Assembly (NCBI RefSeq): GCF_009914755.1 | Contig: NC_060926.1 | Strand: one strand, 5' to 3' | Origin: the human T2T-CHM13v2.0 reference genome, Homo sapiens | DNA: 64,000 nucleotides | Part shown: positions 7,137-8,662 of the stretch, piece after piece | How positions within the stretch are numbered: position 1 is the stretch's first letter | Layout: each line of letters begins with the position of its first letter | The notes under the pieces: generated by a model | What the model saw: the letters and a program-made list of their open reading frames with translations, nothing else | Told to the model about the DNA's origin: nothing | Database searches by the model: none | Position numbers and translations under genes: made by a program

Positions 7137-8024
<888 letters not shown>

Positions 8025-8125
8025 TGAATTTATATTTTTATATTCAAATAGTTTTTCAAAGTTAATATTATCAATGGCCATACATGCTTTATTCAAGGTT
8101 AGTTAAATCCTTTAAAAAATATTAG

Positions 8126-8662
8126 CGGCAAGGTGCAGTGGATCATGCCTGTAATCCCAGTGCTTAGGAAGACTGAGATAGGAAGACAGCTTGGGACCAG
8201 GAGTTCAAGACCAACTTGAGCAAAATAATGAGACCTTGTCTCTACAAAAAATAAAAGAATTAGCTGGTTGTGGTGGCACATGCCTATAGTCCCAGCTACT
8301 CGGAAGGCTGAGGCAGGGGGCTGCCTGCGGGGTTTGGGTCATTGTCTTTTAGAATTTGGGAGGCTTTGAAAAGCCGTGCTTTTGTGCTGGGGAAGATGTA
8401 GCAGTCTCTTCTCCAAACCACCCATTTGCCTTCGGACTTCTCTGGGGCCAGCAGCCATCCAACTAGGGGCCCGGGGCCACGGGCTCAGCTGACGACCATG
8501 GGCTTCGCGTCCAACCAGCAGTTTGCAGGTTCGAGCTCAGGACTTGGCGGGGACACCTTAGGATGCAGGAGTGGCCAGGAGTTCAAGGTTACAGTAGGCT
8601 ATGATTGTGCCACTGCTCTCCAGCCTGGGTGACAGAGAGAGACCCTGTCTCTGAAAAAAAAA
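8126..8662 (+). mobile_element. AluJ interrupted by a ~250 bp foreign insert
   Basis: Alu up to ggctgaggcagg (8317), resuming at gccaggagttcaagg (~8574) and ending in poly(A). Confidence 0.88.
8320..8572 (+). pseudogene. Unprocessed LIN28A-like fragment (proximal promoter, exon 1 and start of intron 1)
   Basis: gggcccggggccacgggctcagctgacgaccATGGGCTTCGCGTCCAACCAGCAGTTTGCAG|gttcga encodes MGFASNQQFA, compared with LIN28A MGSVSNQQFA; upstream sequence matches the LIN28A 5'UTR as I recall it. Confidence 0.85.

What the first reader, a model, noticed from the sequence alone, without database searches (positions are those of the whole stretch)
8320..8572. Unspliced LIN28A promoter-exon 1-intron 1 fragment captured inside an Alu in PJVK intron 4
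Seen: an AluJ right arm is split by ~250 bp of non-Alu, GC-rich DNA. About 9 bp of Alu are lost and there is no poly(A) or TSD. The insert has gaccATGG at 8498 encoding MGFASNQQFA, then G|gttcga. From memory, LIN28A begins MGSVSNQQFAG, has a 31-nt first coding exon, and its 5'UTR matches 8384-8497 with mostly CpG-decay changes. After the donor the sequence does not continue as LIN28A exon 2 (GCAKAAEE), and ~60 bp precede the UTR, including a SOX-type CATTGTC at 8340. Inference: not a processed pseudogene but a templated insertion (DNA or nascent RNA) used to patch a break, which moved a pluripotency/germline core promoter into a deafness gene in sense orientation.
Basis: partly seen in the sequence, partly recalled or inferred. 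Interest (0 to 1): 0.8.

Follow-up and report, generated by a model that had tools for sequence, protein, structure and literature searches.

The report
Old LIN28A promoter-exon patch in Alu
A 257-base unspliced copy of the start of the LIN28A gene (promoter, first exon, start of first intron) was pasted long ago into a broken Alu repeat inside an intron of the deafness gene PJVK; it is a clean old example of a known kind of DNA-break patch and shows no sign of being active today.

Summary
Window 8312-8581 aligns in one block to chr1 (G000:C1:26248727-26249010; E 2e-91; 245 of 270 aligned bases identical). That locus is LIN28A: a retrocopy maps to it as four exons, and its exon 2 translates to residues 11-76 of PDB 'Protein lin-28 homolog A'.

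The copy holds 66 bp upstream of the (recalled) RefSeq start, the 5'UTR, the 31-nt coding part of exon 1 and the first 46-53 nt of intron 1. The four LIN28A retrocopy loci whose 5' ends were aligned switch to exon 2 at the same point.

The insert (8318-8574) replaces 14 nt (11-14) of an old Alu right arm. It has no poly(A), no target-site duplication and no filler. Microhomology is 3 nt (AGG) on the left and 7 nt (CCAGGAG) on the right.

It is much less diverged than its host Alu (about 6% against about 19% at non-CpG sites), so it arrived later.

This fits the published 'class 2 templated sequence insertion' at a double-strand break. I favour a DNA template (about 60%) over RNA. CpG decay (19 to 10) and a 13-bp gap in the core promoter suggest an inert relic. 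It is a new member of a known kind.

The parts
8127..8317 (+). Host Alu, 5' part: left arm, A-rich linker, and right arm up to GAGGCAGG.
   Evidence: BLAST to other Alus of the window ends at 8315-8320. MAFFT alignment with 10 Alus. 32 of 163 non-CpG columns differ from the window-Alu majority consensus. One CpG is left. The J-type assignment rests on recalled diagnostic bases.
8315..8317 (+). Left junction microhomology AGG. It is shared by the Alu and LIN28A. An imperfect match extends over 8312-8320.
   Evidence: C at 8314 is the Alu base and G at 8318 is the LIN28A base. Chance of 3 or more matching bases is 0.06.
8318..8574 (+). Insert of 257 bp. It is a copy of chr1 G000:C1:26248733-26249003 (271 bp, L002:1507-1777), which is LIN28A promoter, exon 1 and intron 1, unspliced.
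   Evidence: 24 mismatches in 257 aligned bases, and two gaps (13 bp and 1 bp) in the copy.
8318..8383 (+). Core-promoter part. 66 bp here correspond to 80 bp in LIN28A. It holds CATTGTC at 8340-8346 and lacks 13 bp (GGGCCCTCCCACC in the source) between 8378 and 8379.
   Evidence: The RefSeq start site at the equivalent of 8384 is recalled, not taken from a tool.
8384..8497 (+). 5'UTR-equivalent. Three independent LIN28A retrocopies begin at the equivalent of 8426-8430.
8498..8528 (+). Coding part of exon 1, 31 nt, MGFASNQQFA+G. Aligned against chr1 MGSVSNQQFA+G: two amino-acid changes.
   Evidence: 8505 C>T, 8508 T>C. PDB LIN28A chains start exon 2 at residue 11.
8529..8574 (+). First 46 nt of LIN28A intron 1 (463 bp in the source). 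The donor GTTCGA is unchanged.
8575..8581 (+). Right junction microhomology CCAGGAG, 7 nt, shared by LIN28A intron 1 and the Alu.
   Evidence: Chance of 7 or more matching bases is 0.0005.
8575..8662 (+). Host Alu, 3' part, with the A-tail at 8654-8662.
   Evidence: 14 of 73 non-CpG columns differ from the consensus. No CpG is left.

Best explanation
This is an ancient germline 'patch' of a chromosome break. An old Alu in PJVK intron 4 suffered a double-strand break in its right arm and lost 11-14 nt.

The gap was filled with a 257-bp copy (271 bp in today's source) of the 5' end of LIN28A on chr1. The copy runs from about 80 bp upstream of the start site, through exon 1, into the first about 50 nt of intron 1. 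The donor locus stayed intact.

The most likely course (inferred) has four steps.
1. The resected right-hand end annealed by 7 nt (CCAGGAG) to the LIN28A sense strand in intron 1.
2. A DNA polymerase copied leftwards through exon 1 and the promoter.
3. Synthesis stopped at a G-quadruplex-type polypurine tract.
4. The new strand was released and joined to the left end by a 3-nt microhomology (AGG).

LIN28A is strongly transcribed in early embryo and germ cells (recalled), the only cells where such an event is heritable. This fits the published bias of donors towards active promoters and R-loops. The copy has since decayed as neutral intronic DNA and most probably does nothing now.

Shown: source, colinearity, unspliced state, junction anatomy, and relative age against the Alu. 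Inferred: break repair, direction of synthesis, DNA rather than RNA template, and inertness.
For: 1. There is a single contiguous hit to chr1 across promoter, exon 1 and intron 1: E 2.1e-91, 245 of 270 aligned bases identical.

2. The chr1 locus is LIN28A.
- Retrocopy L004 maps to it in four blocks.
- Exon 2 translates to residues 11-76 of PDB 8ops_B 'Protein lin-28 homolog A', E 4e-41.
- Pfam CSD matches the exon-3 translation (E 2.6e-8, 34 bits, cut-off 27). The exon-2 half scores below the cut-off (20.4 bits).

3. The four retrocopy loci aligned at the exon 1 end switch to exon 2 after GCAGGT, while the window copy follows the intron.

4. The insert ends lack poly(A), target-site duplication and filler. 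All 10 comparison Alus carry 14 nt that the host lacks.

5. Microhomology is 3 nt on the left and 7 nt on the right. Chance of 7 or more is 0.0005 and of 3 or more is 0.06, in 200,000 random donor-by-Alu junctions.

6. Only this one promoter-bearing copy was found in the 3.1-Gb genome. So the fragment was not carried by a spreading Alu.

7. The insert is younger than the host.
- Non-CpG mismatch is 14 of 230 (6.1%) against its source, or 15 of 231 if 8314 is counted.
- The host Alu shows 46 of 236 (19.5%) against the majority consensus of 18 window Alus.
- CpG is 10 in the copy against 19 in the source; the host Alu has 1 left.

8. The donor's left boundary (L002:1504-1507) lies in the last G-run of a four-run G4 motif (1491-1509). 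That motif ends the longest purine-only run (44 nt) of the 3,284-bp locus. Three sense-strand G4 motifs cover 88 of 3,284 bp.

9. The copy starts 110 bp (124 bp in the source) upstream of the point where three independent retrocopies begin. This argues against ordinary LIN28A pre-mRNA as template.

10. Published parallels:
- Class 2 templated sequence insertions have no TSD or poly(A) and show microdeletion and microhomology. Experimental inserts were 73-414 bp (PMC5110952, parts 1-2 read).
- More than 70% of donors came from promoters and gene bodies and span start sites. The process depends on R-loops and BLM/POLD3 and starts by microhomology (bioRxiv 10.1101/2022.09.30.509517, passages).
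- Genomic exon-plus-intron inserts from highly transcribed genes occur in antibody switch regions (PMC9457163, passages).
Against: - DNA and RNA templates are not resolved. Onozawa and Aplan argue that most experimental inserts come from reverse-transcribed RNA. An upstream-starting or antisense transcript over the LIN28A promoter cannot be excluded here.
- A G-rich block would stop a reverse transcriptase as well as a DNA polymerase.
- The G4 coincidence has roughly a 3% chance on one strand and rests on one event.
- The 3-nt left microhomology alone is not beyond chance (0.06).
- The age is only relative. No other primate genome could be searched, and the Alu yardstick mixes subfamilies.
- Inertness is inferred from sequence decay and lack of annotation. 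No expression, chromatin or methylation data were available.
- ATG, Kozak-like context, splice donor and the CATTGTC motif are all still intact.
Confidence: 0.85

Rival explanations
1. The patch is the same but RNA-templated. An unspliced sense transcript, starting upstream of the usual LIN28A start, or an antisense one, was reverse-transcribed at the break. The enzyme could be L1 ORF2 acting without its endonuclease, or another reverse transcriptase. Priming used the 7-nt microhomology, and synthesis ended at the RNA 5' end or at an RNA G-quadruplex.
For: - The published view is that many templated insertions come from RNA. Reverse-transcriptase inhibitors cut their frequency more than three-fold, and transfected mouse RNA was captured (PMC5110952).
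- The insert is in a transcribed region and ends in an intron, as nascent RNA would.
- Microhomology priming fits equally well.
Against: - 80 bp of the source lie upstream of the recalled RefSeq start.
- 124 bp lie upstream of the common 5' end of three independent retrocopies, and none of the four retrocopy loci with 5' ends reaches further.
Confidence: 0.33
2. The fragment went in together with the Alu. L1 reverse transcriptase copying Alu RNA jumped to LIN28A RNA and back again during one retrotransposition event, giving a chimeric retrocopy.
For: - The insert has the same orientation as the Alu.
- Microhomology at both switch points is typical of template jumps.
Against: - Non-CpG divergence of the insert from its source is 6.1% (14 of 230). 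The host Alu's is 19.5% (46 of 236) from the window consensus, even allowing about 5% for subfamily differences.
- About half of the source's CpGs remain in the insert (10 against 19), against 1 CpG left in the Alu.
- It needs promoter sequence in RNA.
- It needs two precise jumps that lose only 14 nt.
Confidence: 0.03
3. The copy still works. It acts as a SOX/OCT-responsive mini-promoter, alternative first exon or cryptic exon of PJVK in pluripotent or germ cells.
For: - CATTGTC, the ATG context and the native splice donor are unchanged.
- It lies in sense orientation in PJVK intron 4.
- An acceptor-like tcttttag|A at 8345-8353, together with the donor after 8528, would frame a 176-nt exon.
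Against: - CpG observed/expected fell from 0.66 to 0.43, with 9 of 19 source CpGs hit by a mismatch.
- 13 bp are missing just upstream of the recalled start site.
- A splice from 8528 to PJVK exon 5 is out of frame and hits a stop at codon 16 of 180.
- The hub's table lists no RefSeq exon or functional element there.
Confidence: 0.07
4. It is a processed pseudogene fragment or an assembly artefact.
For: LIN28A has several retrocopies in this genome.
Against: - It contains promoter and intron sequence, and has no exon 2 and no poly(A).
- About 9% divergence from the source rules out a chimeric assembly of present-day chr1 reads.
Confidence: 0.01

Closest known systems
Class 2 templated sequence insertions (TSI/TSIP; Onozawa and Aplan, PMC5110952)
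   Same: A stretch templated from a distant chromosome with the donor intact. No TSD, no poly(A) and no L1 cleavage site. Microdeletion and microhomology at the junctions. The size lies within the experimental 73-414 bp range. It must have arisen in germ line or early embryo.
   Different: Those are recent polymorphisms or cell-line events, and the polymorphic class was reported as rich in mitochondrial donors. This one is tens of millions of years old by divergence and presumably fixed. Its donor spans a promoter, which argues for a DNA template, whereas the authors favour RNA.
Transcription-coupled templated insertions at Cas9/AsiSI breaks (Min et al., bioRxiv 10.1101/2022.09.30.509517)
   Same: Donors are enriched at promoters and span start sites. 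A microhomology-initiated copy is then released and end-joined. R-loop-prone active genes serve as donors.
   Different: That is somatic cell culture with a median insert of 120 bp. Here it is a single natural germline event, so dependence on RAD51, BLM or POLD3 cannot be tested.
Genomic inserts in antibody switch regions (LAIR1-type; PMC9457163)
   Same: Pieces of a few hundred bp of unspliced genomic DNA (exon plus flanking intron) from highly transcribed genes, captured at breaks.
   Different: Those are B-cell specific, depend on programmed breaks, are somatic, and are selected for function.
LIN28A processed pseudogenes (loci on C20, C2:183.7 Mb, C5, CX, C13 and others in this genome)
   Same: The same parent gene, and they overlap in the 5'UTR and exon 1.
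   Different: Retrocopies are spliced and start at the equivalent of 8426-8430. The window copy carries promoter and intron and stops 46-53 nt into intron 1.
NUMTs and endonuclease-independent L1/Alu insertions (recalled literature)
   Same: Fixed filler DNA at ancient breaks, without TSD and with microhomology.
   Different: The filler here is a single-copy nuclear promoter-exon fragment, not organellar or retroelement sequence.

Membership tests
Class 2 templated sequence insertion (break patch) | The insert is templated from a distant locus that remains intact. | tested here: met
   chr1 donor is present and colinear: one block, E 2.1e-91.
Class 2 templated sequence insertion (break patch) | No target-site duplication; a microdeletion instead. 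| tested here: met
   14 nt (11-14) of the Alu are missing and nothing is duplicated. All 10 comparison Alus carry the stretch.
Class 2 templated sequence insertion (break patch) | No poly(A) tract or polyadenylation signal at the insert end, and not at a TTTT/A site. | tested here: met
   The insert ends ...GGAGTGG|CCAGGAG. The target is GGCAGG/AGGATC within the Alu.
Class 2 templated sequence insertion (break patch) | End-joining marks (microhomology or non-templated bases) at the junctions. | tested here: met
   3-nt and 7-nt microhomology and no filler. P(7 or more) = 0.0005.
Class 2 templated sequence insertion (break patch) | Polymorphic in humans (the 'P' of TSIP). | not testable with these tools
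   About 9% divergence from the source implies an old, probably fixed event. No population or primate data were available.
Processed pseudogene / L1-mediated retrocopy | Introns removed. | tested here: not met
   It continues into intron 1, whereas the four aligned retrocopy loci go on to exon 2.
Processed pseudogene / L1-mediated retrocopy | 3' poly(A) and flanking TSD. | tested here: not met
   Neither is present at the insert edges.
Chimeric retrocopy by RT template switching during Alu insertion | Both parts are of the same age. | tested here: not met
   6.1% against 19.5% non-CpG divergence. CpG 10 against 19 in the source, against 1 left in the Alu. The yardstick is rough.
Active CpG-island-type promoter | CpG observed/expected kept high (commonly above 0.6; the threshold is recalled). 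| tested here: not met
   Copy 0.43 against source 0.66.
Active CpG-island-type promoter | Transcription initiation and open chromatin at the site. | not testable with these tools
   No CAGE, ATAC or ChIP data. No exon or functional element in the hub's RefSeq table.

The most novel reading that the evidence does not exclude
The relic is not silent. With its SOX-type motif, ATG context and native donor intact, it may fire as a pluripotent- or germ-cell-specific start site or cryptic exon inside PJVK.

Separately, its anatomy may be a fossil record that heritable break patches in primates are copied from R-loop-prone promoters of germline-active genes. That anatomy is a 7-nt entry microhomology in intron 1 and an exit at a promoter G-quadruplex tract.
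Probability: 0.1. Interest if true: 0.55.

Novelty: new member of a known kind. Interest (0 to 1): 0.3.

Why it matters
- It is a clean, datable natural example of a templated break patch whose donor spans a promoter, a first exon and an intron start.
- Such cases bear on a still open question: whether heritable templated insertions are copied from DNA or from RNA, and whether active germline promoters are favoured donors.
- In practice, a 91%-identical copy of the LIN28A promoter and exon 1 could attract mis-mapped short reads or cross-priming in LIN28A promoter, methylation or ChIP assays.
- The intact donor and an acceptor-like site define a possible 176-nt pseudoexon. This is worth knowing when deep-intronic PJVK variants are interpreted.
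- Nothing found here suggests an effect on hearing or on PJVK expression.

Tried and rejected
- Processed pseudogene: rejected.
- Co-insertion with the Alu by RT template switching: rejected on relative divergence.
- A spreading Alu-plus-insert family: rejected. The own-genome search gave only the window itself, the chr1 source and exon-1-only retrocopy hits (7 matches in all).
- Reverse direction (chr2 to chr1): rejected. The chr1 stretch is an integral part of a four-exon gene and its flanks are not Alu, while the chr2 site is an interrupted Alu.
- LIN28A-PJVK fusion protein: rejected. The exon-1-like piece ends in phase 1 and PJVK exon 5 starts in phase 0. There is a stop at codon 16.
- Trigger by the head-to-head neighbour Alu (7771-8024, minus strand, 102-bp spacer): not resolved. 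That Alu shows 18 of 218 non-CpG mismatches and keeps 9 of 15 CpGs. The insert shows 14 of 230 and has 10 CpGs against 19 in the source. The order of the two events cannot be told.
- Slippage signature for the 13-bp gap: none found beyond 1 nt, judged by eye. Whether it is a deletion in the copy or an insertion in LIN28A needs an outgroup.
- Dating in primates: impossible, because no primate genome is held by the tools.
- Literature on this locus: LIN28A + PJVK gave 4 papers, none about an insertion by title or abstract. PJVK + deep intronic/pseudoexon: none of the 8 listed papers (of 642 that held at least two of the three terms) contains 'PJVK'. Templated insertion + primate + microhomology + fixed + unspliced gave 13 papers, of which 10 were listed and none is about this. 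LIN28A promoter + G-quadruplex gave nothing usable in the 10 listed.

Full report
**What is in the sequence**

Window 8127-8662 is one Alu in + orientation: left arm, A-rich linker, right arm, and a 9-A tail at 8654-8662.

BLAST of 8120-8660 against the whole window shows Alu homology stopping at 8315-8320 and resuming at 8575-8586. In a MAFFT alignment with 10 other Alus of the window, all 10 run ...GAGGCAGG-AG(A/G)ATCGCTTGA(A/G)C-CCAGGAG... across this point. The host has GAGGCAGG, then foreign DNA, then CCAGGAGTTC.

So 14 nt of Alu are replaced. The figure is 11 if the ambiguous 8318-8320 are counted as Alu. The net insert is 8318-8574, 257 bp. The stretch 8312-8581 has 59% GC. There is no A-run, no duplicated target and no untemplated filler at either edge. 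Calling the host a J-type Alu rests on diagnostic bases that I recall (CCAGGAGTTC..., GCTATGAT), not on a tool.

**Where the insert comes from**

A search of the window's own 3.1-Gb genome with 8300-8600 gave 7 matches:
- the window itself;
- one contiguous match of window 8312-8581 to G000:C1:26248727-26249010, + strand, E 2.1e-91;
- five short matches, covering only about 8426-8530, at four places on C20, C2:183.7 Mb, C5 and CX.

The pairwise alignment with chr1 has 245 identities in 284 columns. That is 25 mismatches in 270 aligned bases, plus a 13-bp and a 1-bp gap in the copy.

The chr1 locus is LIN28A.
- The retrocopy on C2:183.7 Mb maps back to chr1 in four blocks: 26248859-959, 26249418-617, 26263317-509 and 26264260-265333.
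- The second block translates to GGCAKAAEE...VDVFVHQ.
- That peptide is residues 11-76 of PDB 8ops_B 'Protein lin-28 homolog A', E 4e-41.
- The exon-3 translation matches Pfam CSD (E 2.6e-8, 34 bits, cut-off 27). The exon-2 half scores 20.4 bits, below the cut-off.

In locus L002, ATG is at 1701, exon 1 ends at 1731, and exon 2 starts at 2195. Intron 1 is therefore 463 bp.

**Unspliced, and reaching into the promoter**

I aligned the window, chr1 and four retrocopy loci. All four retrocopies leave the chr1 sequence right after GCAG|GT and go on as GGCTGCGCCAAGG... (exon 2). The window copy goes on as chr1 intron 1 for 46 nt, plus 7 nt shared with the Alu.

On the other side, the copy begins at L002:1507.

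The retrocopies on C20, C2 and CX have unrelated flanks. The C5 locus shares its 5' flank with C20 and is a DNA-level partial duplicate of it. All begin at the equivalent of window 8426-8430. This is best read as the germline cap site. The copy starts 110 bp (124 bp in the source) upstream of it.

**Junctions**

Left junction: C at 8314 is the Alu base and G at 8318 is the LIN28A base. AGG at 8315-8317 is common to both, inside an imperfect 7-of-9 match.

Right junction: CCAGGAG at 8575-8581 is common to LIN28A intron 1 and the Alu.

In 200,000 random pairings of a donor end (L002:1300-2000) with a point in another old Alu of the window, microhomology of 7 or more occurred at frequency 0.0005. 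Microhomology of 3 or more occurred at 0.06. The right junction is thus clearly homology-guided. The left one alone is not beyond chance.

**Relative age**

Mismatches between copy and source:
- 25 in all, 10 of them at CpG sites.
- 15 lie in 231 non-CpG columns. This becomes 14 of 230 (6.1%) without 8314, which belongs to the Alu.
- The source stretch has 19 CpGs and the copy has 10. Nine were hit and one is new.
- In the exon-1 part, the retrocopies carry the chr1 base at the non-CpG differences (for example 8505, 8508, 8464). This is by eye. Most change is therefore on the copy's side.

The host Alu differs from the majority consensus of 18 full-length Alus of the window at 46 of 236 non-CpG columns, 19.5%. 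Those 18 Alus range from 5.8% to 19.0%. The host Alu keeps one CpG.

The yardstick is rough because it mixes subfamilies. I recall that J and S consensus sequences differ by up to about 5%. Even so, the insert is clearly far younger than its host. It is about as diverged as the least diverged Alus of the window. From recalled Alu ages and primate neutral rates, I infer roughly 20-50 million years. No primate genome was available to test this.

**Mechanism**

The anatomy is this: a distant donor left intact, a microdeletion, no TSD, no poly(A), no TTTT/A site, and microhomology.

It is the published definition of a class 2 templated sequence insertion at a double-strand break (Onozawa and Aplan, PMC5110952; I read parts 1-2 of 4). 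The size lies within their experimental range of 73-414 bp.

Min et al. (bioRxiv 10.1101/2022.09.30.509517; passages only) report the following:
- more than 70% of donors come from promoters and gene bodies, and donors span start sites;
- the process needs transcription, R-loops and BLM/POLD3;
- it begins by microhomology-mediated annealing and ends by end joining.

Lebedin et al. (PMC9457163; passages only) describe exon-plus-intron genomic inserts from highly transcribed genes in antibody switch regions.

LIN28A is highly expressed in pluripotent and germ cells. This is recalled; the listing abstract of PMC13519115 calls it essential for pluripotency. Those are the cells where a heritable event must occur.

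One further detail fits a copying model. The donor's upstream boundary (L002:1504-1507) lies in the last G-run of GGGAGGGGAGGGGAGGGGG (1491-1509). That motif ends a 44-nt purine-only run, the longest in the 3,284-bp locus. Sense-strand G4 motifs cover 88 of 3,284 bp.

I infer this sequence of events:
1. The resected right end annealed by CCAGGAG to the sense strand, which is the strand displaced in an R-loop.
2. The end was extended leftwards.
3. Extension stalled at the G-rich block.
4. The new strand was released and joined by AGG.

None of these steps is shown directly.

**DNA or RNA**

The promoter content argues for DNA. An ordinary LIN28A transcript would not contain 80-124 nt of the copied stretch, and none of the four retrocopy loci with 5' ends reaches upstream of about 8426.

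An upstream or antisense transcript cannot be excluded, and a G-rich block would also stop a reverse transcriptase. I put DNA at about 60% and RNA at about a third.

**Function**

I found nothing that suggests present activity.
- CpG observed/expected fell from 0.66 to 0.43. This is what germline methylation does to neutral DNA.
- 13 bp (GGGCCCTCCCACC in the source) are missing just upstream of the recalled start.
- Two of the ten codons are changed (aligned differences at 8505 and 8508).
- The ATG opens only a 44-codon read-through frame.
- A splice from 8528 to PJVK exon 5 would be out of frame, with a stop at codon 16 of 180.
- The hub's table shows no exon or functional element there.

Against this, CATTGTC, the ATG context and the donor GTTCGA are intact. 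Activity was also not testable here, so I leave about 7%.

**Novelty**

No paper on this locus was found (listings only). The kind of event is well described.

This is a new, old and unusually legible member of that kind. Interest is modest.

Noticed in passing
window 7771-8024 (minus strand) against 8127-8662: A younger Alu lies head-to-head with the host Alu across a 102-bp spacer. It keeps 16 CpGs, has an internal deletion of the linker region, and shows 18 of 218 non-CpG mismatches. The arms are 75-87% complementary. Closely spaced inverted Alus are recalled to be break-prone, so the pair might have provoked the break. The ages of this Alu and of the insert are too similar to order the two events.
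   Followed up: partly
L003 (C20), L004 (C2:183.7 Mb), L007 (CX); equivalent to window 8426-8430: Three independent LIN28A retrocopies begin at the same base (GCCTTCGGACTTCT). That is about 44 nt downstream of the recalled RefSeq start. It suggests that this was the main germline cap site when they formed.
   Followed up: partly
L005/L006 (G000:C5:90116525-90116656): The C5 LIN28A retrocopy fragment shares its 5' flank (about 58 bp) and diagnostic changes with the C20 copy. It also carries an internal tandem repeat of the first about 40 nt. It is a DNA-level partial duplicate, not a separate retrotransposition.
   Followed up: partly
L002:1466-1509 (chr1, LIN28A promoter): A 44-nt purine-only GGA/GGGA tract holds a four-run G4 motif with 1-nt loops, about 80 bp upstream of the recalled start site. 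A (TG)n microsatellite lies at about L002:1200-1226.
   Followed up: partly
window 8353-8528: The acceptor-like tcttttag|A (from the LIN28A promoter) and the native LIN28A donor CAG|gttcga frame a possible 176-nt pseudoexon in PJVK intron 4. Its length is not a multiple of three. No transcript evidence was available.
   Followed up: no
window 8378/8379 against L002:1568-1580: A 13-bp indel (GGGCCCTCCCACC, a CACCC/GC-box-like element) is present in LIN28A and absent from the copy. Whether it was lost in the copy or gained in LIN28A needs an outgroup.
   Followed up: no
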